Notes: a model not told the origin generated them from the letters alone. 14,258 bases of DNA from an uncultured Lentisphaeraceae bacterium (GCA_964434815.1 CAYSXF010000018.1:1-14258), one strand, 5' to 3'. Positions 1 to 13,563 are shown, numbered from the stretch's first letter. A program made the numbers and translations.

Positions 1-50
1 TACGAGATAGCTTCAGGTGACTGGAGTTCAGACTTGTGCTCTTCCGATCT
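1..50. other. Illumina library adapter (end of P7 'TACGAGAT' + 8-nt index 'AGCTTCAG' + TruSeq read-2 adapter GTGACTGGAGTTCAGAC[T]TGTGCTCTTCCGATCT, 1 mismatch); non-biological contig-end contamination
   Basis: Nt 1-8 tacgagat, 9-16 agcttcag, 17-50 match the 34-nt TruSeq adapter with a single G>T. From memory the index corresponds to TruSeq HT i7 D707 (CTGAAGCT). Confidence 0.93.
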
Positions 51-1179
51 GCTCGAACTTCTTCGAATCTTGGGCTGCAAGCTCGCGGTCGCGGATAATG
101 CTGGCGATCTCTTGGGGCGCGAGGATATCGCGAATCAGCACCGAATTGAGCGAGATACCCCAAGGCTGGCAGATGGCCTTCAAATAGGTTTCGAGGCTAT
201 CTTGGAAGGCTTGGCGGGACTCGCCCACAATTAACTCGGTGGCGCATTTCTTGCTGCCTTCGATGCGGAAGAAGCCGCGTGCGCTGGGCAATATCAGCTT
301 CTGCATAATATCGTCCATGTCGCCCACCTCATGGGTGGGCTGCGCGACCTTCTCGCGGCTGAGGTTGAACTCCAGCGTGCCTTCGACCGTGACTGGGAAG
401 CCGTCGAGGGTCAGGAACATGATGGCGTCATCGCCGTTGAACTCGAAGCGCTGGCTTTGGATAGTGACGATCGAAACGGCGTACAGGAAGGGGTTGAGGC
501 GGTGTGTGCCCTCTTTGAGCACCTCGCTCTGAACACCCTTGAAACCGGGTGCGGCGAGAAAGCCCTTATCCGCAGAAGGCGCTGCGGCGCTGCCGGTGAG
601 GATGTCGGTGCCACATAATAAGGTGACAACGCCCACATGGCCGGGAGCGATTTTGATGTCGTCGAAGAGCTTCACTTCGTAGGCGTAGGGGTTGATGCGG
701 TGCTTGCCTGTGCCGAGCACGTCGCGCACGATGCCTTTGTAGTTTTCGTCTGGCGCGATGATCTGGCCGCCGGGCAGGTCCTTGCCGTATTTCCGAACCA
801 GCACGCCGAACTTGCCGGCCGGGATATCTGTGGCCTTGATGATCGTCCAGCTCCAGGTATAGGGGTTGCGGAAGAAGCGGCCTTCGGGCAGCACGTCGGG
901 CTGGATGCCCTTGTACTCGGGCGAATCGGCGAGGATGCGCTCGACCGGCAGGTTCTTGCCGGTCTTTTTGACGAGCACGGCTATCTCGCCGCTGTCGGGC
1001 TCGATGCGCCAGCAGAACCACCACCACAGCGTGCCTAGAATGAAAGCGGCCACAAGCAGGAAAGGCAGCAAGGCAATGGCGGGCAGGGATGGCATGGGCG
1101 GCAGGGGCGAGCGCTGGGGCGGCGTGGCCGGGCGGCGCGGCTGGAGCGGCGGCGGGACGGGATTTGATTCGTCGTTCAT
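51..1179 (-). CDS. SPFH/band-7 (stomatin/HflK-like) membrane protein, 3'-truncated at the contig end. The ORF-track stop at 28-30 and the last ~7 codons lie in adapter sequence.
   Basis: Pro-rich N-terminus, then a TM helix (LPAIALLPFLLVAAFILGTLWWWF). C-terminal part carries typical SPFH motifs (ISLNSVLIRDILAPQEIASIIRDRELAAQ). Strong SD GGAGGU 7 nt upstream of the ATG at 1179. Tandem internal ~57-aa duplication (VLVKKTGKNLP.. / VLVRKYGKDLP..). Confidence 0.75.
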
Positions 1180-1295: not shown

Positions 1296-4200
1296 TTGCG
1301 CATGACACCTTTTGATATTCTTGTTCTGACGGCGGCGAACGAAGCGCAGGCGGACGGCTACCGGGCACAGTTGGCGTGGCGGCAGGCGAACGGCTTGCTC
1401 GACCCGGCCACGCGCGTGCTCGTGATCACGGATCCCGGCGGGCGGCGAGTGGGGTCCCTCGGCGCGACGCTGAACGTGCTGGCCGTGTTGGCGGATGAGA
1501 ACGGAGGCCGGAGATCAGAGGCCAGAAGCCGGAGAGAAAAGTCCGACCTCCGACCTCCGACCTCCGACTTTCAATCTCTGTTCGAAGGCAAGCGCATCCT
1601 GATTTGCCACTCGGGCGGCGACAGCCGCCGCACGCCGGCTTACGCGGCGCAGGGCAAAGTCTTCACGCCCGTGCCGACGGTCGCGGCGAACGGTGTACCG
1701 CTGGCGCTCTTCGATCTCATTCTGCGCACGGTGCAGGAGCTGCCCGTGCCTGCGGCGGGGCATGTGCTGGTCACATCCGGCGACGTGCTGCTGACCTTCG
1801 ACCATGCGTCGGTCGATCTCTCGCGGCCGGGTGTCACAGGCGTGGCGTACTTCGGGCCGGTCGAGCGGGGGTCGCGCCACGGCGTGTATGTGCCTGAGAA
1901 TTTCCGCTCAAACCCGCTGGGGACGGAGTGCGTGCCGGTGATCGATTTTCTTCAGAAGCCCTCGGAGACCGAGGCGCGAGCATGCGGCGCGGTTGACCCC
2001 TTTGGCCACGTGGCGGTGGATACTGGACTGGTGAGCTTCGATCCTGCGACCTGCGCGAAGTTGCTGGAGGTGGCGGGATGGAAGGGGAGGAACGCCCAAC
2101 GCTCAACGAATAAAGGGATAACAAAAAAAGGCCTGCTGGCGGAAATCATCGACGGCTCCTGCCCTGCGTTGGACCTCTATGAGGAGCTGACCATGGCGGT
2201 GACGCCGCGCTTCGACGAGGCGCGTTTCCTCGAACGTTTCGTGGGCGGGCGCGGGCGCGACGCTGCGCACGGCCGCCGGATGAGCGCTTTCTACCGCGCG
2301 ATGCGCTCGGTTCCGTTCCAGGTGAACATCGTGCCGTACTGCGAGTTCTTCCACATCGGCAGCAGCCGCGAGCTGCTCTCCGGTTTCTCCGGACTCTCGC
2401 GCACGGCGCAGGAGTACCGCTTCGCCAACGGCAGCGGCGCGTGCGTGACAAGCGGCGGCGAGACTGGCCGCGCGTTCGTATTCAACGCACGCATCGCCTG
2501 TGCGCTCAAGACCGGCACCGCGCTCATCGAGGCGGTGCATGCCGCCGAGTGCCCGAAACTGGAGTTGGAGGGCGATAACATTCTGACGGGCCTGCCGCCC
2601 GAAGCCAAAGTGGCCATATGGTTGGCTAAAGGAATCGGGCTGGTATGTCTGCCGATCGGCAAAGCAGAATGGGCGGTCATCGCATATGGGATCGACGACG
2701 ATTTCAAGACGCCGTTCGGCGGCGGCAAGCCGTGCCTTTTCCTGAACCAACCGATCGAGTCCTGGATGGCTCGCAACGGTGTGGCCGAGGAGAAGCTTTG
2801 GCAGGGCGACCAGAAGGACGGCCTGTGGCGCGCGCGGCTGTGGCGCGTCGGCGCGCTGGACGACGTGTTGGCCGAGGCGGTCGTTGTGGGGCGCGGCGAC
2901 GGGTGGACCGACGGCGTGCGGGAACGCCGGGCCAGCATCGCCGAGCTGCTGCCGCGCGTGAACCACGACCGGCTGCTGGCGGTGCGACAGGAGATCCGGC
3001 GGCAGGTGAATCTGATGCGCGTCACGGAGCGGCTGCTGGCCGACGACGCGTTGCCCGCTGCGACCGTCTGCGGCGAGATCCAAACGCCGGACGAGGCCGC
3101 GCTTGTTCTGAGGCAGCTTGCGCTTCTGCTCGAAGGGGTGGCTTTCGACAAGCCGCTGTTGCGCGCGCGCGTTCTGCGCCTCGCGGCCATGATCCAGAAT
3201 GGAAAGCAGAAGCCGGAGGGCGGAAGTCGGAAGTCGGAACGGGGGACAAAGATTGCTGAGTTGCCGATCTCCGACCTCCGGTCTCTGACGTCTGATCCCC
3301 AGGCGGCAGCGTTCGCGGCCGTGTCTGAAGCGGTGGCCGTGAGCTTCGAACCGGCGGATAAGCCGCGCCCGGCGGCGATCCTGCACGATCAGGTGGTCTG
3401 GGTGACCACGCCCGTGCGCATCGACTTCGCGGGCGGCTGGTCGGACACGCCGCCGATCTGCACCGAACAGGGCGGCACGGTGCTGAACGCGGCGGTGACG
3501 CTCAACGGGCTCTATCCCATCCAAGTGATTGCCAAGCTCAACACGTCGGGGTGCATCCGCCTCTCCAGCATCGATCTGGGCGAGCGCAAAGAAATCCGCA
3601 CCACGGCGGAGCTGCTCGACCACCGCGATCCGCACGACTGGGCGGCGCTGGCTAAGGCGGCGCTGATCCTCGCGGGCGTCGGTCCGTCGCGCAAGGATGA
3701 GCTGCTCGGCAAGTGGCTGGAAGTATTGGGCGGCGGGCTTGATCTGACCATTTTCTCTTCGCTGCCCAAAGGCTCGGGCATGGGCACGAGTTCGATTCTC
3801 GGCGCGGCGGTGATCGCCTGTCTCGACCGCGTGTTCGGCGTGCCGTTCAACACGGACCGGCTGATCCGCATGACGTCGATTCTGGAGCAGCGCATGTGCA
3901 CGGGCGGCGGGTGGCAGGATCAGGTGGGCGGCATCATGCCGGGCGTGAAGCTGATCCGCACCCAGCCGGGAACCGACCAGACGGTGGCGTTGCGCTGGAC
4001 GGTTTTCGACATGTCCGAGGCGAGCGAGCTGAAGCGGCGCTGCCTGCTCTATTTCACAGGGCAGAAGCGCATGGCGCGCAACATCCTCCAGAACGTCGTG
4101 AACGGCTATCTGGCGCGCGACCCGCTCGTGCTGCAGACCGTGCGCGATCTGAAGGTGTCGGCGGTCGAGACCAAAGAGGCGCTCGACGCGCAGGATATCG

Positions 4201-4484
4201 ACGGGTTCGCGCGGGGCATCGCGCGGTATTGGGAACTCAAGAAGCAGATCGATCCGGGATCGACCAATGCGCCGATCGAAAAATTGCTGAAGTCGGTCGC
4301 GCAGGAGACGCAGGCGGCGCTGCTGCCCGGCGCAGGCGGCGGCGGCTTTATTTTCATGCTTGCAAAGAGTGCGGCGGCGGCCGCGCGCATCCGGCGCACG
4401 TTCGAGGCGAACCCGCCCAACGCCCACGCTCGGTTCTTCGACTTCGGCGTGGATCAGCAGGGGCTGAAGGTAACTGTACTGTAG
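1296..4484 (+). CDS. fkp: Bifunctional L-fucokinase / L-fucose-1-phosphate guanylyltransferase (Fkp-like). N-terminal fucokinase-family nucleotidyltransferase domain, C-terminal GHMP-kinase domain.
   Basis: N-terminus DILVLTAANEAQADGYRAQLAWRQ...RRVGSLGATLNVLAV resembles the fucokinase-family N-domain (cf. human FCSK IVLTCQHKDS.../VGSGGATLNALLV). C-terminal GHMP motif LPKGSGMGTSSILGAAVIACL and VRIDFAGGWSDTPP. Long, gap-free ORF of 1062 aa. Confidence 0.8.
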   Translation: MRMTPFDILVLTAANEAQADGYRAQLAWRQANGLLDPATRVLVITDPGGRRVGSLGATLNVLAVLADENGGRRSEARSRREKSDLRPPTSDFQSLFEGKRILICHSGGDSRRTPAYAAQGKVFTPVPTVAANGVPLALFDLILRTVQELPVPAAGHVLVTSGDVLLTFDHASVDLSRPGVTGVAYFGPVERGSRHGVYVPENFRSNPLGTECVPVIDFLQKPSETEARACGAVDPFGHVAVDTGLVSFDPATCAKLLEVAGWKGRNAQRSTNKGITKKGLLAEIIDGSCPALDLYEELTMAVTPRFDEARFLERFVGGRGRDAAHGRRMSAFYRAMRSVPFQVNIVPYCEFFHIGSSRELLSGFSGLSRTAQEYRFANGSGACVTSGGETGRAFVFNARIACALKTGTALIEAVHAAECPKLELEGDNILTGLPPEAKVAIWLAKGIGLVCLPIGKAEWAVIAYGIDDDFKTPFGGGKPCLFLNQPIESWMARNGVAEEKLWQGDQKDGLWRARLWRVGALDDVLAEAVVVGRGDGWTDGVRERRASIAELLPRVNHDRLLAVRQEIRRQVNLMRVTERLLADDALPAATVCGEIQTPDEAALVLRQLALLLEGVAFDKPLLRARVLRLAAMIQNGKQKPEGGSRKSERGTKIAELPISDLRSLTSDPQAAAFAAVSEAVAVSFEPADKPRPAAILHDQVVWVTTPVRIDFAGGWSDTPPICTEQGGTVLNAAVTLNGLYPIQVIAKLNTSGCIRLSSIDLGERKEIRTTAELLDHRDPHDWAALAKAALILAGVGPSRKDELLGKWLEVLGGGLDLTIFSSLPKGSGMGTSSILGAAVIACLDRVFGVPFNTDRLIRMTSILEQRMCTGGGWQDQVGGIMPGVKLIRTQPGTDQTVALRWTVFDMSEASELKRRCLLYFTGQKRMARNILQNVVNGYLARDPLVLQTVRDLKVSAVETKEALDAQDIDGFARGIARYWELKKQIDPGSTNAPIEKLLKSVAQETQAALLPGAGGGGFIFMLAKSAAAAARIRRTFEANPPNAHARFFDFGVDQQGLKVTVL
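1542..1569 (+). repeat. Heptanucleotide tandem repeat (TCCGACC)x4 inside the fkp CDS; encodes the low-complexity linker SDLRPPTSDF
   Basis: tccgacc tccgacc tccgacc tccgact read directly. The repeat unit is 7 bp, so it is not a multiple of 3. Confidence 0.9.
3207..3283 (+). repeat. Second low-complexity insert in fkp. Same 12-mer CAGAAGCCGGAG as at 1523-1534, followed by (CGGAAGT)x2+CGGAAC (3221-3240) and the inverted partner TCCGACC TCCGGTC (3270-3283)
   Basis: cggaagtcgga and tccgacctccg are near reverse complements (1 mismatch), giving an imperfect hairpin with a ~30-nt loop. 12-nt identity with segment 1523-1534. Confidence 0.8.
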
Positions 4485-7778: not shown

Positions 7779-8495
7779 TTATCCCCGTCCTTGCACCAAT
7801 TTAAAAAAACGGTCTTGGTAATGCTCGAAAAGCCCGTTGTCTTGCAGCAGCTTGCCGAGCGACTTGACCAACCCCGGGTCCTTCGCGGCGGCTTGGAAGC
7901 CTTTCTCGATCTCTTCGCGCAGCCCAACGGGAATCCCATCCTGCATCTCGAACATGCGGCGCTCGTGCAGCTCGCGGATGTTGGCCTGGGCCGAGTTCTG
8001 GATCACCGTCCAAAAGAGCCGCACCAGGCAGACGTCCCACGGGTCGTCCACGCCCTTGATCACGGCGGCGAACGGGTCCTGCTTGGTGGTCACTTCCAGT
8101 TTGACGCGCTCCAGCACGGCTTCTGCGGTGTCGGTGAGCACCTGCTCGCTGAACGCCTCCTGCTTGAGCGTGTAGCCGTAGCGCAGGATGCGCACCGTGT
8201 CCTCGTGCTCCTTCAGCCATTCAAGGTACTGCTGGGCCTGTTCGCCGAAGCCCTCCAGCATCAGCGTCGAATAGGATGAGGGCGTGATGATCTGCGGCCG
8301 CAGCGCCTGCATGCGGCCCTCGCGGACGCGCACCTTCCCGATGGAGTCCATCAGCTCGCTCACCATGTGGTAGTTGATGATCGTGTTGCCGAAGGTCTCG
8401 ATATGGCGCTTGGGCGGCACCACGATCTCCGTGTTGTTGACGGCGAACCAGAAATCGAATTGTGAGGGTCTCTTACTCATGTCAAAGGCAAACAC
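7779..8495 (-). CDS. Conserved hypothetical protein (238 aa, no family recognised). Start is GTG at 8495 or ATG at 8480.
   Basis: Uninterrupted ORF with non-repetitive, acidic/aromatic composition unlike the Arg/Ala-rich antisense artefacts. Packed between dtd and leuC on the same strand. No convincing SD for either start. Confidence 0.55.
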   Translation of the reverse strand: MFAFDMSKRPSQFDFWFAVNNTEIVVPPKRHIETFGNTIINYHMVSELMDSIGKVRVREGRMQALRPQIITPSSYSTLMLEGFGEQAQQYLEWLKEHEDTVRILRYGYTLKQEAFSEQVLTDTAEAVLERVKLEVTTKQDPFAAVIKGVDDPWDVCLVRLFWTVIQNSAQANIRELHERRMFEMQDGIPVGLREEIEKGFQAAAKDPGLVKSLGKLLQDNGLFEHYQDRFFKLVQGRG

Positions 8496-8519
8496 TATAA
8501 CATGAAAGGCGGCCGCTTG

Positions 8520-8987
8520 TCACGATGGCGCGGAAGGCGAATTATCGGTCCGCAACTCGACCGTCACCGGGCCGTCGTTGAGCAGGCGGACCTTCATCTC
8601 TGCTCCGAAGACGCCGGTGCCGACGCGGCCCTCTCCGAGCGTCTGGCGGAGCTGGCGCACCAGTTCGTTGTAGAGCGGTTCGGCGTGTTCGGGCCGCGAG
8701 GCCTCGATGAAGCTCGGCCGGTTGCCCTTCTTGGTATCGGCATAAAGCGTGAACTGCGAGACCACGATCACCGACCCGCCGATGTCCGCGACCGACTTGT
8801 TCATCAGCCCCTGCTCGTCCTCGAAGATCCGCAGGGCCGGGATCTTGCGCGCCAGTTTTTCAACGTCTGCCAAACCGTCGCTATGCGTGATGCCGAGCAG
8901 GATCAGGAGCCCGCGGCCGATCTCCGAGATGATCTGTCCGTCGACTTCGACCGAGGCTTCGGAGACTCTCTGAATTAGCGCTTTCAT
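8520..8987 (-). CDS. dtd: D-aminoacyl-tRNA (D-Tyr-tRNA(Tyr)) deacylase
   Basis: [17 protein letters not shown]..., SQFTLYAD and NDGPVT motifs. ~150 aa, as expected for Dtd. Confidence 0.9.
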
Positions 8988-9004
8988 GGTAGGTTATGAG
9001 TCAA

Positions 9005-9186
9005 TAGTCACTGGTCACTAGTCATTGGTCATTGGGAAGTAGTCATTGGTCAACACACGTGAATGCTCCATTTCCGATCAGGTGTACCAGTGACCAATGA
9101 CCACTGACTCCTACTACTGACCAGTGACCAATGACCACTGACTCCTACTACTGACCAGTGACCCGTGCCTACTGACTACTGACCTT
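9005..9186. repeat. Complex intergenic repeat. Left arm has three direct GTCAYTGGTCA words (9007-9017, 9021-9031, 9042-9052). Right arm has a 34-bp tandem repeat x2.6 (9087-9120, 9121-9154, degenerate 9155-9186) built from the reverse-complement words TGACCAATGAC / TGACCAGTGAC. The last unit extends into the final 5 codons of the upstream CDS.
   Basis: Read directly. There are 11-bp perfect inverted repeats, GTCACTGGTCA (9007-9017) against TGACCAGTGAC (9118-9128, 9152-9162). Period between tandem copies is 34 bp. Confidence 0.85.
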
Positions 9187-12100
9187 CTTCCACACGCGCA
9201 GCAGCTCCGATACGCCCCACGCCTGCGCGCCGCAGCCGCGCGATACGTGCGGCTCGTCGCCGTCGCAGATCTCTGGCGTGTGACCTAAGCAGCCGGTGTT
9301 CACGAGCTCTACCGCCGACCCGAGCAGCGAGAGACCGGTTGAACGCGCGGCCTTGCCGTACACCTTGGCCAATGCCTCAACATACAAAGGGAACTGCCAC
9401 GTCCACGCTGTGCCGTTGTGGTAGGCGGGCTTGCGCCGCGTATCCTCGTCGCCCAGATAATGCGCCTGATACGGCCGGTGCGGGTCGTTCAGCAACACGC
9501 CGTCGCGCCACACGCCCATGTCCGCCAGCACCGGACGGTCGGCCAGACTGCGGATCGCGCCCGGCACGAGCAGGCATTCGCAGGCTCGGATAATCGACAC
9601 CTCCAGATCGCGGTCGGTCAGCACGCCGAGCGTGACGGCCAGCAATTGGTTCGGGCGCAGCGCGTCCTCTTGTTCGGCCTTCTCGGCGGGAACGCCCGGT
9701 GCCGCGCGCAGGCAGTCGGCGAGCCAGCCTTCCTTGACGATGAAGTAACGCGCCAGCGAATCTGACGCCTGGTCGGCCAGCGCGCCCCACGAAGCGTCGA
9801 TTTTGCGTGCCACGAGCCGCAGGCTGGCGATCCACAGCGCCTGAATCTCCACAGGATAACCTTCGCGCGGTGTCGCGGCTGGATAGTTGGTGTCCATCCA
9901 TGTGAAGTGCGGCGGGCTGTAGATGAGCCCGCTCTGGACATCCATATGGATCCCGTTGGGAGTGCCGTCGCGGTAGTGCGTGACGATCGAAACCAGCACT
10001 TCGCGTAACGTCCGCTTGCCGCAGGTCGCGTTGAGCACCGTATCGTCGTCGCCCGCCGCCATCAAGTCGCCTGCCGCCACGCAGAACCAGAGCGGCGCGT
10101 CCGACGTGTCGCGGTTGGCGTCGTCGTTGCCGCGGATCATATTGGGGAGCGTGCCTTGATGCTCGAAACGCCCGAATTCATTGAGAATCGCCAGCGACTC
10201 GCTGAACCGCCGGTCCGCGATCAGCCCGCGCAGAACGATGAGCGTGTCGCGTCCCCAGTCCAAAAACCATGGATAGCCCGCGATCACGGTGCGCAGCGCG
10301 TCGCGCCGCACCACGTAGAGCGACAAGGCCTGCGACAGCGCCTCGGGCAAGGCCAGAAAACCCTCCGCACTTCGCTCCCCCGAGGGTCGAGTGTCGAGCG
10401 TCGAGCGTCCGTCCTCCTTCGCCCAGCAGTCCTTCCGTGCCGCGGTCAGCGCAACTTTCTGCGTGCCCTCCAGCGGCAGTTCGAACCAGCCGGGACTGAA
10501 GAGGTCGCCAGCGCTGTCGAGGCCGCGCTCTTTCTCTTCGGGGTGGGCGACCATATAGGCCCAGTTCGGCTCGTGGTGGTAGCGGCCGCAGTCGGTCTCA
10601 AGGCTGAGGGTCTCTCCGCCTGCAGGCGTGAAAGTGAAACCGGCATCCGCAGCACACGTCGCCTCGGGCCACGCCCGTTCAGGGCCGAGGAAGGCTTTGG
10701 TTTTCTGATGGAAGCTGCGCCATTCGATGTCGGGCCGGACGATCACGGTCACCGCGTCATGCGGGTCAAGCCCGCCCGGTCTTTGATGGCGCGCGATGAC
10801 AAGACGCACGCGGTTGACGCCTTCTGCGATCTCGAGCCGGAACGTGAGCGGCACCCAGCAGCCCATGCCGCACGGCACTTTGAAAGACCACTCGGCGAAG
10901 CTCCCTCCGGGATCGGCCTCGAACGACGCGAGGCAGGCGGCGTTGATCTCCTGAGAATAGCCGCGGTGACGCAGCCAGGCGCGGCAGCGCGTCCAGAAGA
11001 TCATTTTTTCGACCGGCACCTTCGCGTCGGGATTGACGGCCAGCAGGCAGTCGTACTGGCTGCGGATCTCGCCCCAGGCCGCACGCACCTGCGCCATGGC
11101 GCCCGCGCCGTTCGACAGCACGGCATACGGACTGCCTTCCTTTCGCACCTGCACGCCGCTGACGCGCGTCAGGATGCGCGCGGCGCCGGCGGGAGGCAGC
11201 ACCAGAAGCGGCGTGGAGTCTCGCCGGATACCCTGCGGCGTGTAGATCGTGGTGACCAGCGAGCGGTGTTCGGCGCGGGTACCGCCTAACGACGGATCGT
11301 ATGGGTCGACCACGAGGAAGGCACCCCACTGGCCGTCGTCGAACAACACGGACGTTTCGGTCGTCAGCGTCCGCTCGCCCACCGTCATCGAAGCGTCGAA
11401 AGGATGTTCGGCACGCACCAGCAGCAGGTGACCCTCGGGAACCATCACCTGTCGGCGGGTGTCGGTCGGCCATGTCCAAACCGTGCGTGCGGGAAGCCCG
11501 CCGTCCTCACGTACGCAGAACGCGTCGGGATCGGCAACCATTGCAGCGCCCAGCGTGTCGGGGTCGCCCTCGAACGGCAACCGAGTATCGGGGTTGCCGG
11601 ATGCGAGTGCAAGCCTGACGCGCATGGACATCAGGTTGCGGCGGCGGAGAGCGATGGCGGCGGGCTCGCGTTCGGCTGAAAGAGGTGTCGCGGCGAAGCG
11701 CGTCCGATCCGTGCGCTCGATGTCGTCCGAGTCGCGCGTGAGGCAGCAGACGCGGCCGGGGCGCAGGCGCAACTGGCCGCGGGGGGAGAGCGCGAACGCT
11801 TCGCCGGACAGCAGGTCCCACGCCACAGGCGCGTCGAAGGCCTCGGTGTTCCAGTGTACCGTCTGGCTGTGGTCGCAGTCGAAATTCACCAGCACGAGCA
11901 GGGCTGTGCCGTTCGGGGCCTCGCGCCGCACCGCGATCACCGCGCCCTCGCCGTGCTGCACGAGGCGCAGGTGCGTGCCGGGCCCGAAGGCCGGGTGGCT
12001 GGCCAGTAGCGCATTCAGCCGCGCGATCTCGCCCACCTGGTTGCGCTCAGCGTCCCAGTTCAGCCCTGACGCGCCGTGCACTTCGATCTTCTCGGTGGCG

Positions 12101-13446
12101 AACCACTCCACGCCGTTGGAGATGCCGAAGCCGCCCTGGTGCGACAGCAGGGCTGAGAGCGCCACCCGCATGCGGGCGTAGGTCTCGCCGCGTGCGGCGA
12201 GGCGGTTGTTGTCGTGCGTCTCGGCGAAGTGGACCAGCGGGCCGCAGCGCTCTGCCAGCGGGATGGCGCGCGGCAGATACCACTCCATCGCACCGCGGTC
12301 CTCGGTCTGGAAAAGCTCGGAATAGGCCCAGTCGAGGTTGGCCTCGGTCAGCAGCGCCTCGGTCACTTCGACTTTGCCGCCCAGGCCTTCGAGCAGAAAG
12401 ACAGTGTCAGGATATTCCTCGCGCACGCGGGCCACAATATACGTCCAGATCTCGGCGGGGATCATGTAGCCCGCGTCGCAGCGGAAGCCGTCCACGCCTT
12501 GGCGGCACCAGAAAAGGAAGACGTCGGCCATGTAGGCGCGCAGGCGCGGGTCGCGGTAGTCCAGCTCCACCAAGTCGGCCCAGGTCACGCCCCACGCGCC
12601 GGGCGAGACGAACTGGCCGTCCGGCTTGCGGCGGTACCAGTCGGGGTGGTGCGTCTGCAGCGTGGCAGCCCAGCCGGTATGGTTGGCTGGCAGGTCCATG
12701 AAGAGGTAGCCGGCGCGGCTGTGGACTGCGTCGATCAGCTCGCGGAACTGGTCCAGCGGCGTGGCGCGCGAGTCGAACTCCGCCAGCGCGGGATCGACCG
12801 AGAGAAAGTCCAGCGCCGCAAACGCCGAGCCGAAGCGACCCATGCGCGCGAAAGTGACGGGCGTAGGGTGGACCGGCAGGAGCTGAACGATGCGGAAGCC
12901 CAAGGTCCCCATGATGTGGCCCAGCTTGCGGACCACGTCGCGGAACGAGCCGGAGGGCGGCAGCACGGTGTAGCCCAGATGGTCCAGCTCGCGCTCCTTG
13001 TCGCGGATCGCGTCCGTGCGCGGGTTGTGATGCAGCGACGCGCCGAACTGGCGCACGAAAGCGGTGTACATCGTGTTTGCGCACGCGGTGTGGGCCGGCT
13101 CGACCTTGATGCGCAGGTTATCGCCCTCCGGCCATTCGGGGACGCCGGAGCCGTGGGCGAAGAAGCAGGCCTTGCCCGCGAAGATGCCCACCTGCGTGAG
13201 CGGGATGCGCACGCTGAAAAGGCCCGGCGCGGTCTCGCGCATCGGCACGTCGTGCCAGTCGCGCGCCAGCGCCGGCTCGCCGGACTCGGTGCAGGCGATG
13301 ATCTCCTGGCGGCGGATAGGGGCCTGGCCCAGATTGGTGCGGAACACGGCGCGGCCTTTGCGCAGCACGCCAAGGCGCAGGCTGACCTCGAACAGATCGC
13401 CTGCCCATTTCAGATGAAAACTGCCGGGCTGTGGGGTATGGTGCAT
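9169..13446 (-). CDS. Giant alpha-glucan-active fusion protein. N-terminal GlgE-like (GH13) maltosyl/glucanotransferase domain, plus a central beta-sandwich, plus a C-terminal amylo-alpha-1,6-glucosidase (GDE_C, GH133-like) domain. Probable start is ATG at 13446; the ORF track extends to ATG at 13521 through AT-rich promoter-like sequence.
   Basis: GH13 regions present: DLPANHTG (I), GVDGFRCDAGYMIP (II), VFLLEGLGG (III), FAETHDN (IV). Overall pattern closely parallels GlgE (VQLLPVHPTP.., HPDWYRRKPDG vs HPEWFHHRPDG, the NALLASHPAF...LVLVNFDCDHSQ tail). C-terminal GYPWFLDWGRDT, HNGTAWTWQFP and GCGAQAWGVSELLRVW are hallmark GDE_C motifs. Nt 13447-13563 is ~43% GC against ~65% in the CDS. Confidence 0.8.
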   Translation of the reverse strand: MHHTPQPGSFHLKWAGDLFEVSLRLGVLRKGRAVFRTNLGQAPIRRQEIIACTESGEPALARDWHDVPMRETAPGLFSVRIPLTQVGIFAGKACFFAHGSGVPEWPEGDNLRIKVEPAHTACANTMYTAFVRQFGASLHHNPRTDAIRDKERELDHLGYTVLPPSGSFRDVVRKLGHIMGTLGFRIVQLLPVHPTPVTFARMGRFGSAFAALDFLSVDPALAEFDSRATPLDQFRELIDAVHSRAGYLFMDLPANHTGWAATLQTHHPDWYRRKPDGQFVSPGAWGVTWADLVELDYRDPRLRAYMADVFLFWCRQGVDGFRCDAGYMIPAEIWTYIVARVREEYPDTVFLLEGLGGKVEVTEALLTEANLDWAYSELFQTEDRGAMEWYLPRAIPLAERCGPLVHFAETHDNNRLAARGETYARMRVALSALLSHQGGFGISNGVEWFATEKIEVHGASGLNWDAERNQVGEIARLNALLASHPAFGPGTHLRLVQHGEGAVIAVRREAPNGTALLVLVNFDCDHSQTVHWNTEAFDAPVAWDLLSGEAFALSPRGQLRLRPGRVCCLTRDSDDIERTDRTRFAATPLSAEREPAAIALRRRNLMSMRVRLALASGNPDTRLPFEGDPDTLGAAMVADPDAFCVREDGGLPARTVWTWPTDTRRQVMVPEGHLLLVRAEHPFDASMTVGERTLTTETSVLFDDGQWGAFLVVDPYDPSLGGTRAEHRSLVTTIYTPQGIRRDSTPLLVLPPAGAARILTRVSGVQVRKEGSPYAVLSNGAGAMAQVRAAWGEIRSQYDCLLAVNPDAKVPVEKMIFWTRCRAWLRHRGYSQEINAACLASFEADPGGSFAEWSFKVPCGMGCWVPLTFRLEIAEGVNRVRLVIARHQRPGGLDPHDAVTVIVRPDIEWRSFHQKTKAFLGPERAWPEATCAADAGFTFTPAGGETLSLETDCGRYHHEPNWAYMVAHPEEKERGLDSAGDLFSPGWFELPLEGTQKVALTAARKDCWAKEDGRSTLDTRPSGERSAEGFLALPEALSQALSLYVVRRDALRTVIAGYPWFLDWGRDTLIVLRGLIADRRFSESLAILNEFGRFEHQGTLPNMIRGNDDANRDTSDAPLWFCVAAGDLMAAGDDDTVLNATCGKRTLREVLVSIVTHYRDGTPNGIHMDVQSGLIYSPPHFTWMDTNYPAATPREGYPVEIQALWIASLRLVARKIDASWGALADQASDSLARYFIVKEGWLADCLRAAPGVPAEKAEQEDALRPNQLLAVTLGVLTDRDLEVSIIRACECLLVPGAIRSLADRPVLADMGVWRDGVLLNDPHRPYQAHYLGDEDTRRKPAYHNGTAWTWQFPLYVEALAKVYGKAARSTGLSLLGSAVELVNTGCLGHTPEICDGDEPHVSRGCGAQAWGVSELLRVWKKVSSQ
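10386..10410 (-). repeat. Heptanucleotide tandem repeat (GTCGAGY)x3 within the giant CDS; encodes the low-complexity segment TLDTRPS
   Basis: gtcgagt gtcgagc gtcgagc gtcc read directly. Confidence 0.85.
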
Positions 13447-13563
13447 AATTTGCTGCTCGATAAATTCGAGCGATTCGAGTCTCGATTCCATCGATTGAAT
13501 CGATTTGTTCGACTTTACCATATCCCTTAGAGCGCGTATACTGGCACTTTTACAGGAAAAAGC
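13447..13563. promoter_or_regulatory. AT-rich divergent control region between the glucan-enzyme gene and metF. Three TCGATT motifs at exact 9-bp spacing (13482, 13491, 13500) plus GCGATT at 13470. Candidate metF promoter TTTACC (13514-13519), N17, TATACT (13537-13542). metF SD is AGGAAA.
   Basis: GC drops to ~43%. The periodic motif is tcgattcca tcgattgaa tcgatttgt tcgac. The -35/-10 spacing was counted by hand. Confidence 0.4.

What the first reader, a model, noticed from the sequence alone, without database searches (positions are those of the whole stretch)
9005..9186. 180-bp composite inverted + tandem repeat (GTCAYTGGTCA words; 34-bp unit x2.6) between the glucan-enzyme gene and dtd, overlapping the CDS 3' end
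Three direct copies of GTCAYTGGTCA sit on the left. On the right their reverse complements are embedded in a 34-bp tandem array whose last degenerate unit encodes the C-terminal KVSSQ of the upstream protein. Read from the minus strand this RNA could fold into a very long imperfect hairpin right after the stop codon, but there is no U-tract, so it is not a canonical terminator. The architecture (11-bp perfect terminal inverted repeats GTCACTGGTCA/TGACCAGTGAC, internal tandem units, ~180 bp, intergenic) is also what a MITE/REP-like element or a multi-site operator array for a dimeric regulator would look like. The GTCAYTG GTCAYTG sub-periodicity is again 7 bp, as in the intragenic repeats.
Basis: seen in the sequence. 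Interest (0 to 1): 0.55.

Follow-up and report, generated by a model that had tools for sequence, protein, structure and literature searches.

The report
Heptamer-repeat hairpin between two operon genes
The spacer between a glycogen-debranching-type gene and dtd in a freshwater Kiritimatiellia bacterium is filled by a strain-variable palindrome of 7-base GTCAnTG repeats, a common kind of bacterial simple-sequence repeat best known from cyanobacteria, and it is neither a conserved regulatory site nor a terminator.

Summary
Window 8991-9187 is an imperfect palindrome. It has about 7 GTCAnTR heptamers on the left, a 33-nt unique core, and reverse-complement heptamers on the right arranged as a 34-nt unit x2 exact plus 1 degenerate. 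All 12 near-matches to GTCANTGGTCA in the 14-kb contig lie here (0.59 expected).

The element fills the 181-nt gap between the GDE-like gene and dtd (both minus strand). It also supplies GDE's last codons and its stop codon.

It is lineage-specific. In the 12 other lineages examined, this junction is a 4-nt overlap or a gap of 2-62 nt (191 nt in one), and none carries these words. Several carry unrelated hairpin or repeat sequences at the same spot. Independent assemblies carry an allele with exactly one 34-nt unit fewer.

Runs of four or more GTCAnTR units occur in more than 120 genomes, about 55% cyanobacteria and the rest from many phyla. They lie almost always outside genes. In all eight cases where inverted arrays pair up, they bracket the spacer between two co-directional genes.

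Best reading: an STRR-like heptanucleotide repeat palindrome that grows by slippage and is transcribed inside the operon as a long stem-loop acting like a REP or ERIC element. This function is inferred. The operator and canonical-terminator readings are rejected. A MITE cannot be excluded. Ordinary in kind, new for this phylum.

The parts
8991..9187 (-). Whole imperfect palindrome. It fills the GDE-dtd intercistronic gap (8988-9168) and reaches 19 nt into the GDE coding sequence.
   Evidence: Inverted pair I1 has arms 8991-9029 and 9147-9185. Folds give z -5.5 to -6.2.
9000..9052 (+). Promoter-distal array: about 7.5 heptamers GTCAnTR, one of them degenerate. It forms the 3' arm of the hairpin in the minus-strand transcript and ends 12 nt before the dtd ATG.
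   Evidence: (TRF periods 7, 14 and 21).
9053..9085 (.). Unique 33-nt core, the loop region. It has its own short inverted symmetry (ACACGTG...CAGGTGT).
   Evidence: inner 5+3 bp stem. The core plus 11 flanking nt was found only at this locus in about 2 Mb of loci and not in IMG/VR.
9086..9187 (-). Stop-proximal array: a 34-nt higher-order unit made of five heptamer-like words (one is 6 nt), x2 identical plus 1 degenerate. It forms the 5' arm of the hairpin.
   Evidence: family D1; period 34, 2.7 copies, 93% matches, score 156.
9120..9153 (-). The polymorphic 34-nt unit. One of the two identical copies is absent from the short allele.
   Evidence: L001, L003 and L221 lack exactly 34 nt. L001 and L003 each show 4 mismatches to the window in overlapping aligned stretches, and L221 comes from another study.
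9169..9186 (-). Last five codons (KVSSQ) and the TAG stop of the GDE-like gene, built from heptamers GGTCAGTAGTCAGTAG.
   Evidence: Relatives share ...LLRVWKKV and then diverge (VE.., MVKALN..).
9169..13521 (-). Upstream gene: 1450-aa alpha-amylase / GDE_N / GDE_C (amylo-alpha-1,6-glucosidase type) protein.
8520..8987 (-). Downstream gene dtd (D-Tyr-tRNA deacylase). In the predicted fold its start region pairs at the base of the hairpin.

Best explanation
The element is a lineage-specific palindrome built from heptanucleotide simple-sequence repeats. The words are GGTCAnT / TTGGTCA-type, the same as cyanobacterial STRR2.

Shown:
- It replaced the normally minimal junction of the GDE-dtd operon in one freshwater Kiritimatiellia lineage. 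In the 12 other lineages examined the junction is a 4-nt overlap or a gap of 2-62 nt (191 nt in one).
- It overwrote the last codons of GDE and donated a TAG stop.
- It is still changing copy number in 34-nt steps.

Inferred mechanism of origin: slipped-strand mispairing or unequal recombination of heptamer arrays, combined with an inverted duplication.

Inferred mechanism of action: the element lies inside a co-transcribed gene pair, so it is transcribed and folds into a stem-loop with a roughly 27-bp outer helix and a 15-bp inner helix, with no U-tract. It would then behave like a REP or ERIC type intercistronic stem-loop. It could be a barrier to 3'-to-5' exonucleases, or a double-strand-specific processing site, that uncouples GDE and dtd mRNA levels. 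The GDE stop codon sits in the outer 5' arm and the dtd start region pairs at the helix base, so dtd initiation would depend on ribosomes terminating on GDE and opening the base of the stem. That would preserve the translational coupling that relatives achieve by overlap.

The net effect is probably small. The element is best seen as a tolerated, largely selfish or neutral repeat at a site that readily accepts hairpins.
For: Anatomy and significance.

Folding. The short allele folds into a cleaner full-length hairpin, -73.7 kcal/mol, z -5.2.

Operon context: in relatives the two genes overlap by 4 nt (L146 and a contig from sample ERZ1426829) or are 2-62 nt apart.

Lineage specificity: none of the 12 other lineages at this junction has the words.

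Turnover of unrelated hairpins and repeats at the same spot:
- A GC-rich 20-bp-stem palindrome in L217-L220, L015 and L137 (z -6 to -12.8). It was found only at this junction in all 221 loci.
- A 36-nt tandem plus inverted repeat in L009 (-92 kcal/mol, z -3.7).
- An 8-mer repeat in L141.

Copy-number polymorphism.

By my count of the record titles, 66 are cyanobacteria, 14 Bacteroidota, 13 Acidobacteriota, 6 Planctomycetota, 6 Chloroflexota, 3 Verrucomicrobiota or Victivallales, and 12 others. 96 of 103 arrays lie outside long ORFs.

Recurrent layout: in all 7 other cases with an inverted partner (L018, L021, L022, L061, L105, L108, L132), the two arrays bracket the spacer between co-directional genes. 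In L105 and L061 an array overlaps the upstream stop, as here.

Other heptamer arrays and hairpins occur in the same contig.

Literature:
- Heptanucleotide repeats are the most abundant long simple-sequence-repeat class in most prokaryotic genomes (Mrazek 2007, as summarised in PMC4679880).
- GAC(C/T)AAT x8 lies upstream of Nostoc recO, and deleting it changed regulation by LexA and NtcA in reporter assays (bioRxiv 10.1101/2022.06.06.494920).
Against: No expression data exist. Co-transcription, folding in vivo, processing and coupling are all inferred.

Every copy of the element is identical apart from the 34-nt indel, so covariation cannot support the RNA structure.

The two arms are not mirror copies, and the recent 34-nt duplication is not mirrored on the other side. 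That argues against selection for a precise structure.

Five related lineages do without a clearly significant hairpin here: L138, L139, L140 and the two with overlapping genes (L141 and L142 fold only weakly). A hairpin is therefore not required.

The unique 33-nt core cannot be produced by slippage alone and has no counterpart in relatives. That fits insertion of a pre-formed element better than growth in place.
Confidence: 0.55

Rival explanations
1. It is a non-autonomous mobile foldback element (MITE-like). Its long terminal inverted repeats are made of heptamer sub-repeats, and it inserted as a unit between GDE and dtd.
For: The entire 181 nt, including a unique palindromic core, is absent from all relatives. 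The size and lack of coding capacity fit. Inverted symmetry runs to the centre. Related heptamer hairpins sit in-frame inside the fucokinase gene of the same contig and vary between relatives. This recalls the in-frame insertions of Rickettsia palindromic elements (PMC10969869).
Against: No target-site duplication is visible at the boundaries. No second copy of the core or of the unit linker was found in the window, in about 2 Mb of fetched loci, or in IMG/VR. The arms are only 77-94% complementary and unequal in length. Analogous bracketing arrays in other phyla have unrelated cores. No transposase lies nearby.
Confidence: 0.2
2. It is a transcription stop or 3'-end-defining stem-loop for the GDE gene (U-tract-less or Rho-associated), and dtd is transcribed from its own promoter.
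For: A very stable stem-loop starts at the stop codon. Stem-loops mark transcript 3' ends whatever the termination factor in four phyla (PMC13613805). Strong hairpins recur at this junction in several relatives.
Against: There is no U-tract and no promoter-like site between the stem and dtd. The 3' arm ends 4-12 nt from the dtd ATG, which leaves no room for a promoter. Relatives have overlapping or 2-nt-spaced genes, which implies one transcript. In L015, L137 and L217 the ribosome must read into the hairpin before stopping.
Confidence: 0.1
3. It is a contingency (phase-variable) locus. Repeat-number changes switch or tune dtd expression.
For: Copy number of the 34-nt unit differs between strains. 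Simple-sequence repeats in 5' UTRs can tune expression (PMC4679880 introduction; PMC12721329).
Against: Only two alleles were seen, each linked to its own SNP background, so there is no sign of rapid switching. The indel lies after the GDE stop and away from any recognisable promoter or ribosome-binding site. dtd is a housekeeping proofreading enzyme with no obvious benefit from switching.
Confidence: 0.05
4. It is an array of operator sites for a dimeric DNA-binding regulator of dtd or GDE.
For: It contains repeated 11-nt words in both orientations.
Against: The words are absent from all 12 other lineages at this junction. The same words form arrays beside unrelated genes in many phyla. The arrays lie between two translationally linked genes, not at a promoter. 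Strict 7-nt phasing puts successive sites on different helix faces.
Confidence: 0.03

Closest known systems
Cyanobacterial STRR sequences (short tandemly repeated repetitive heptamers; STRR2 = TTGGTCA; Mazel et al. 1990, cited from memory), and more generally the heptanucleotide long simple-sequence repeats of prokaryotes (Mrazek 2007, as summarised in PMC4679880)
   Same: Tandem 7-nt units with the same word: TTGGTCA or TGACCAA occurs exactly 4 times here. The position is intergenic, point variants are mixed within an array, and copy number varies. The same GAC(C/T)AAT array is described upstream of Nostoc recO (bioRxiv 10.1101/2022.06.06.494920). 66 of the 120 sampled genomes with such runs are cyanobacteria.
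   Different: The host is a roughly 65% GC Kiritimatiellia bacterium, not a heterocystous cyanobacterium. The arrays are short and paired in inverted orientation around a unique core, a layout seen in only about 6% of arrays elsewhere. There is a 34-nt higher-order unit. Genome-wide abundance is unknown.
REP/BIME and ERIC intergenic palindromes of enterobacteria
   Same: Imperfect palindromes lying in transcribed intergenic regions of operons, directly after stop codons, and present or absent between close relatives. Their known effects are on mRNA stability and on ribosomes at the upstream stop codon (PMC12306157). That is the working model proposed here.
   Different: There is no sequence relationship. 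The element is built of 7-nt sub-repeats and is 195 nt long, not 35 or 127. It is less GC-rich than its genome (50% against about 65%). Multi-copy status and a RAYT-type transposase were not shown.
Heptamer-repeat P6b stem-loop of the Nostoc tRNA-Leu(UAA) intron
   Same: A hairpin whose two arms are built from complementary 7-nt repeat motifs. It varies in length by repeat number and has been replaced independently by a different repeat class at the same site (PMC4476775). This parallels the turnover of unrelated hairpins at the GDE-dtd junction.
   Different: That hairpin lies inside a group I intron rather than between two cistrons, uses different motifs, and is found in a different phylum.
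Prokaryotic MITEs, including Rickettsia palindromic elements
   Same: Small, non-coding, with inverted ends. Related heptamer hairpins in this contig are read in-frame inside a gene, as RPEs are (PMC10969869).
   Different: No target-site duplication, no second copy found, and no cognate transposase.
TAACTGA intergenic heptamer repeats of marine Beggiatoaceae (PMC4679880)
   Same: Heptamer direct repeats concentrated just upstream of start codons and scattered across distant phyla, with a proposed post-transcriptional role.
   Different: The word is different, and those repeats are almost exclusively direct (one inverted set out of 170).

Membership tests
Heptanucleotide long simple-sequence repeat (LSSR, sense of Mrazek 2007) | Tandem copies of a 1-11 nt unit, longer than expected by chance in that sequence | tested here: met
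   TRF reports period-7, 14, 21 and 34 arrays. There are 12 word matches against 0.59 expected, and 0 of 200 shuffles reach 12.
STRR (cyanobacterial short tandemly repeated repetitive sequences) | Unit is one of the STRR heptamers (STRR2 TTGGTCA) | tested here: met
   TTGGTCA is at 9025-9031 and 9046-9052. TGACCAA is at 9091-9097 and 9125-9131. The other units are one-base variants GTCA[C/G]TG and GTCAnTA.
STRR (cyanobacterial short tandemly repeated repetitive sequences) | Host is a (heterocystous) cyanobacterium | tested here: not met
   The named homologues of the window's proteins are mostly labelled Kiritimatiellia or Kiritimatiellae. GC is about 62-70% in the flanks.
STRR (cyanobacterial short tandemly repeated repetitive sequences) | Many dispersed arrays per genome | not testable with these tools
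   Only this 14-kb contig of the genome is available. The GTCAnTR words occur at this one site. Other heptamer words occur at 1542, 2088, 3209 and 10381.
MITE | Terminal inverted repeats, small size, no coding capacity | tested here: met
   The arms are 8991-9029 and 9147-9185 at 77% complementarity, and the element is 195 nt in all.
MITE | Target-site duplication flanking the element | tested here: inconclusive
   No direct repeat is seen at ...AAGAAGGT|CAGTAG... and ...CATAACCTACC|ATG. The boundaries cannot be fixed because the ancestral spacer is not conserved.
MITE | Multiple near-identical copies in the genome | tested here: inconclusive
   There is no second copy in the window, in about 2 Mb of loci, or in IMG/VR.
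REP/BIME | Short (about 20-40 nt) GC-rich imperfect palindrome present in very many copies, with an associated RAYT transposase | tested here: not met
   The element is 195 nt, has 50% GC in a roughly 65% GC contig, and is made of sub-repeats. Copy number and RAYT were not testable.
REP/BIME | Located in a transcribed intergenic region, after a stop codon within an operon | tested here: met
   It lies between the GDE stop and the dtd start. In relatives the two genes overlap or are 2-62 nt apart.
Intrinsic (Rho-independent) terminator | GC-rich stem followed by a U-tract | tested here: not met
   The scan finds none in 8988-9168. The 3' arm is followed by CAUAACCUACCAUG.
Operator array of a transcription factor | Sites conserved at the orthologous position in relatives and placed at a promoter | tested here: not met
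   The words are absent from all 12 other lineages at this junction. There is no promoter consensus.
Known structured RNA family (Rfam 15) | Match reaching a family's gathering score | tested here: not met
   The only hit is a chance-level one to a plant microRNA hairpin model: 27 bits against a threshold of 65, E 0.18.

The most novel reading that the evidence does not exclude
Inverted GGTCAnT-type heptamer arrays may be a cross-phylum device, or a cross-phylum mobile foldback element, that brackets whole intercistronic spacers. Pairing of the arrays would loop out the spacer and bring the upstream stop codon next to the downstream start, so that translation and mRNA processing of neighbouring genes stay linked. 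In Kiritimatiellia the same repeat system may also colonise coding regions in-frame at surface hot spots, producing 7-residue-periodic peptides such as SDLRPPT and STLNAQR, much as Rickettsia palindromic elements do.
Probability: 0.1. Interest if true: 0.6.

Novelty: new member of a known kind. Interest (0 to 1): 0.3.

Why it matters
This is mainly a clean negative. The striking repeat is not a conserved regulatory site, a riboswitch or a terminator, so it should not be annotated as one.

It does extend the STRR-type heptamer repeat phenomenon, usually treated as cyanobacterial, to Kiritimatiellia and many other phyla.

It also gives a well-documented natural experiment. One operon junction carries, in closely related lineages, no spacer, a GC-rich palindrome, a 36-nt tandem/inverted repeat, an 8-mer repeat or the heptamer palindrome. 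That series could be used to test what intercistronic hairpins do to coupled genes.

The 34-nt copy-number polymorphism is a potential strain marker for this population in lake metagenomes.

Tried and rejected
- Rfam search of the whole window at permissive E-value. It returned only chance-level microRNA-hairpin hits.
- Promoter and terminator consensus scan. Nothing was found in the element.
- Attempts to obtain more of the source genome. Looking up the SPFH-domain ORF at window 28-1179 and the 100%-identical fucokinase P0121 found no record. The two contigs from sample ERZ1426829 that encode the closest relatives of the hypothetical protein next to dtd (98-99% identical) have no DNA on file. 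Genome-wide copy number therefore could not be measured.
- Literature search by short sequence words (TTGGTCA and similar) returned only irrelevant primer and motif hits. One search failed on term length.
- The GC-rich palindrome in relatives was tested as a dispersed REP. It occurs only at this junction in all fetched loci, so that idea was rejected.
- Covariation analysis and an RNA model were not attempted, because all copies of the element are identical apart from the indel.
- Assembly artefact was rejected. There are eight independent contigs from three assembly sources, and the short allele appears in two unrelated studies with linked SNPs.

Full report
**1. What is there**

The window is a complete 14,258-nt contig of an NCBI metagenome-assembled genome (a 100%-identical fucokinase whose longest contig is 14,258 nt). 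Named homologues of its proteins are mostly labelled Kiritimatiellia or Kiritimatiellae.

The minus strand carries, in order:
- a 1450-aa alpha-amylase/GDE_N/GDE_C protein (13521 to 9169),
- a 181-nt gap,
- dtd (8987 to 8520),
- a conserved hypothetical gene, a LeuC/LeuD-like pair and a ParA-like gene.

The gap is filled by the reported repeat:
- On the + strand, 9000-9052 holds GTCAATA, GTCACTG, GTCACTA, GTCATTG, GTCATTG, GGAAGTA, GTCATTG, GTCA.
- 9053-9085 is a unique 33-nt core with its own short inverted symmetry.
- 9086-9187 holds the reverse-complement words as a 34-nt unit, twice identical and once at 68% (TRF score 156). The 34-nt unit is itself five heptamer-like words (GTCACTG GTCAGTA GTAGGA GTCAGTG GTCATTG on the minus strand), one of which has lost a base.

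All 12 matches to GTCANTGGTCA (at most 1 mismatch) in the contig lie here. Shuffles give 0.59 expected, and 0 of 200 reach 12. Inverted symmetry runs from 8991 to 9185.

The last five codons and the TAG stop of the GDE gene are made of heptamers: AAG GTC AGT AGT CAG TAG, 9186 to 9169.

Predicted folds are long hairpins on either strand:
- minus-strand RNA, -88.3 kcal/mol, z -5.5;
- plus-strand RNA, -81.0 kcal/mol, z -6.0;
- ssDNA, -45.1 kcal/mol, z -6.2.

No Rfam family matches. No sigma-70-type promoter or U-tract terminator is found in the gap.

**2. It is real and it is polymorphic**

The locus occurs in seven other contigs from JGI, ENA and Logan assemblies. L002, L004, L005 and L006 are 100% identical to the window.

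L001 and L003 lack exactly one 34-nt unit, giving a 147-nt gap. Each shows four mismatches to the window in overlapping aligned stretches. L221, from an unrelated study, has the same short allele with a further SNP.

The indel is therefore a strain-level polymorphism, not an assembly collapse. The short allele folds into a more symmetrical end-to-end hairpin (-73.7 kcal/mol, z -5.2). It is probably the older state, and the window allele a recent duplication that the other arm does not mirror.

**3. It is not conserved, and the junction is a hot spot**

I recovered the GDE-dtd junction from 12 other lineages. None carries a GTCAnTG word. Protein homology runs to ...LLRVWKKV and then stops. The window's heptamers begin exactly there.

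| Lineage | Junction | Content | Fold |
|---|---|---|---|
| L146; a contig from sample ERZ1426829 | genes overlap by 4 nt | – | – |
| L139 | 23-nt gap | no repeat seen | no significant fold |
| L140 | 28-nt gap | no repeat seen | no significant fold |
| L138 | 32-nt gap | no repeat seen | no significant fold |
| L142 | 41-nt gap | no repeat noted | -13 kcal/mol, z -2.5 |
| L141 | 62-nt gap | 8-mer repeat (GTGCATTA x4) starting at the GDE 3' end | -23.4 kcal/mol, z -1.7 |
| L217-L220 (one lineage) | 29-nt gap | GC-rich palindrome GGGCGACCCGCCGGTCGCCC-loop-GGGCGACCGGCGGGTCGCCC; the stop codon lies in the loop | -53.8 kcal/mol, z -8.5 |
| L137 | 44-nt gap | near-identical GC-rich palindrome, stop codon in the loop | -56.3 kcal/mol, z -6.0 |
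| L015 | 2-nt gap | same palindrome, read through by the ORF | -65.3 kcal/mol, z -12.8 |
| L009 | 191-nt gap | unrelated 36-nt tandem plus inverted repeat | -92.2 kcal/mol, z -3.7 |

The GC-rich palindrome is not a dispersed REP. It occurs only at this junction in all 221 loci.

Three conclusions follow:
- (a) The two genes belong to one translationally linked unit.
- (b) The ancestral spacer was minimal.
- (c) At least four unrelated repeat or hairpin sequences have colonised this one junction.

**4. What kind of thing it is**

About 0.5 chance hits were expected by my arithmetic from the pattern's information content and the collection size.

By record titles (my count) the 120 loci are:
- 66 cyanobacteria (Nostoc, Microcoleus, Scytonema and others),
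- 14 Bacteroidota,
- 13 Acidobacteriota,
- 6 Planctomycetota,
- 6 Chloroflexota,
- 3 Verrucomicrobiota or Victivallales,
- 12 others.

Arrays drift between one-base variants along their length: GGTCAGA to GGTCAGT to GGTCGGT in Luteolibacter L019, and GGTCGGA to GGTCATT in Victivallales L047.

Of 103 arrays with at least 4 units, 96 lie outside long ORFs, and 6 have an inverted partner within 300 nt. L061 has one at about 340 nt.

In all seven of those cases (L018, L021, L022, L061, L105, L108, L132), as in the window, the two arrays bracket the spacer between two co-directional genes. In L105 and L061 an array overlaps the upstream stop codon. Their cores are unrelated to the window's core.

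The word TTGGTCA is STRR2 of heterocystous cyanobacteria (Mazel et al. 1990, from my own memory). The same GAC(C/T)AAT x8 array is described upstream of Nostoc recO, where deleting it changed regulation by LexA and NtcA in reporter assays and the mechanism is unknown (bioRxiv 10.1101/2022.06.06.494920). Heptanucleotide repeats are reported as the most abundant long simple-sequence-repeat class in most prokaryotic genomes, with polymerase slippage as the proposed cause (Mrazek 2007, summarised in PMC4679880).

The element is thus a member of a known, widespread kind of repeat, here in a phylum where it has not, to my knowledge, been described.

**5. Same contig, same phenomenon**

The fucokinase/fucose-pyrophosphorylase gene (1302-4484, +) contains two in-frame inverted heptamer hairpins:
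- 1497-1570: CGGAGGC-like x5 facing TCCGACC x4, -38 kcal/mol, z -1.7.
- About 3201-3295: CGGAAGT-like facing TCCGACC-like, -48 kcal/mol, z -3.1.

It also contains an AACGCCC/AACGCTC/AACGAAT patch near 2088.

An alignment of 25 close homologues shows three hypervariable hot spots exactly there. The inserts are 0-40 residues long and show 7-residue periodicity. STLNAQR corresponds to (TCAACGC)x3, and SDLRPPT to (TCCGACC)x3. The near relative L217 lacks the third insert and has fewer units in the first.

Arrays of period 7, 14, 21, 28 or 34 number 28 per 168 kb in the close Kiritimatiellia loci, against 64 per 815 kb in the other dtd loci.

Heptamer repeats of the GGTCnnn type are therefore a dispersed, active feature of this lineage. 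That favours a genomic repeat process over a locus-specific function. The exact GTCAnTR element itself is single-copy in everything I could search.

**6. How it most likely works**

Shown:
- the position inside a coupled gene pair,
- the overwriting of the GDE tail and stop codon,
- the copy-number change in 34-nt steps,
- the strong predicted fold,
- the absence of terminator and promoter consensus.

Inferred: the arrays expand and contract by slipped-strand mispairing. The inverted layout with a unique palindromic core arose by an inverted duplication or came in as a pre-formed foldback unit.

Once transcribed, the stem would act like REP or ERIC stem-loops. The minimum-free-energy fold has a roughly 27-bp outer helix and a 15-bp inner helix. 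[quoted passage not shown] The long near-perfect duplex is also a plausible substrate for a double-strand-specific RNase. This last point rests on general knowledge and was not tested.

The GDE stop lies in the outer 5' arm, and the sequence just upstream of the dtd AUG pairs at the base of the helix. A terminating ribosome would open the very segment that masks the dtd start. Coupling could therefore survive a 181-nt insertion.

I put about 0.55 on this package. Most of that rests on the descriptive part. The functional part is perhaps one chance in three, with 'tolerated and nearly neutral' as the default.

**7. Rivals**

- MITE-like foldback element (0.2). This is favoured by the unique core and by the wholesale novelty of the 181 nt. 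It is weakened by the lack of a target-site duplication, of a second copy and of a transposase.
- U-tract-less 3'-end stem-loop with a separate dtd promoter (0.1).
- Contingency locus (0.05).
- Operator array (0.03).
- Assembly artefact, excluded.

**8. Verdict**

Interest is modest (0.3). The points worth keeping are:
- the serial replacement of unrelated hairpins at one operon junction,
- the recurrent stop-array-core-inverted-array-start layout across phyla,
- the in-frame heptamer inserts in the fucokinase gene.

Noticed in passing
window 1497-1570: An inverted heptamer hairpin lies inside the fucokinase/fucose-pyrophosphorylase CDS. CGGAGGC-like x5 faces TCCGACC x4, read in-frame as ...GGRRSEARSRREKSDLRPPTSD... 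It sits at a hot spot that is hypervariable in length among homologues (18-56 residues).
   Followed up: partly
window 3201-3295: A second in-frame inverted heptamer hairpin lies in the same gene, in the linker between the pyrophosphorylase and kinase halves: GGAAGTC x2-3 facing TCCGACC/TCCGGTC/TCTGACG. The fold is -48 kcal/mol, z -3.1. The insert is absent from the near relative L217.
   Followed up: partly
window 2088-2108; homologues P0122-P0160: A third hot spot in the fucokinase. The window has AACGCCC AACGCTC AACGAAT. Relatives carry 1-3 copies of the 7-residue peptide STLNAQR/STLNVQR, which is the translation of a (TCAACGC)n heptamer array. An AACGCTC x5.3 array is also seen in L143 at 2787-2823.
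   Followed up: partly
window 10381-10409: A period-7 array (GTCGAGC-like x4.1) lies inside the GDE coding sequence. No inverted partner was seen nearby.
   Followed up: no
L217 9944-9991 (also L218-L220, L015 7815-7862, L137 about 228-275): A GC-rich perfect palindrome (20-27 bp stem, up to -65 kcal/mol) sits at the GDE-dtd junction of sister lineages. The GDE stop codon lies in its loop, or the ORF reads through it. It occurs only at this junction in all fetched loci, so it is a conserved local hairpin rather than a dispersed REP.
   Followed up: partly
L009 9330-9470: An unrelated 36-nt tandem repeat (x2 plus a degenerate copy) with an inverted partner fills a 191-nt GDE-dtd gap in another relative (GCA_023269675.1). 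The architecture matches the window's element but the sequence is different.
   Followed up: partly
L141 about 9945-9985: An 8-nt simple repeat (GTGCATTA/GTTCATTA x4) starts at the 3' end of GDE in yet another relative.
   Followed up: no
L015 8411-9936; contig from sample ERZ1426829 (no DNA held): The dtd-hypothetical gene junction is also plastic. One relative has an HTH/HipA-type toxin-antitoxin module inserted there. Another has about 7.5 kb encoding Sel1-repeat and CsgG-like proteins.
   Followed up: no
window 8494-8523 (minus strand): The only good sigma-70-like promoter match in 8400-9700 (GTGACA-18-TATAGT, with an extended TG) lies at the 3' end of dtd, just upstream of the conserved hypothetical gene (start 8495). 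That gene may have its own promoter.
   Followed up: no
L019 1026-1150; L047 5404-5530: In Luteolibacter and Victivallales genomes, long arrays change word along their length (GGTCAGA to GGTCAGT to GGTCGGT; GGTCGGA to GGTCATT to CGTCCAC). This shows how heptamer families diversify by point change followed by spread.
   Followed up: no
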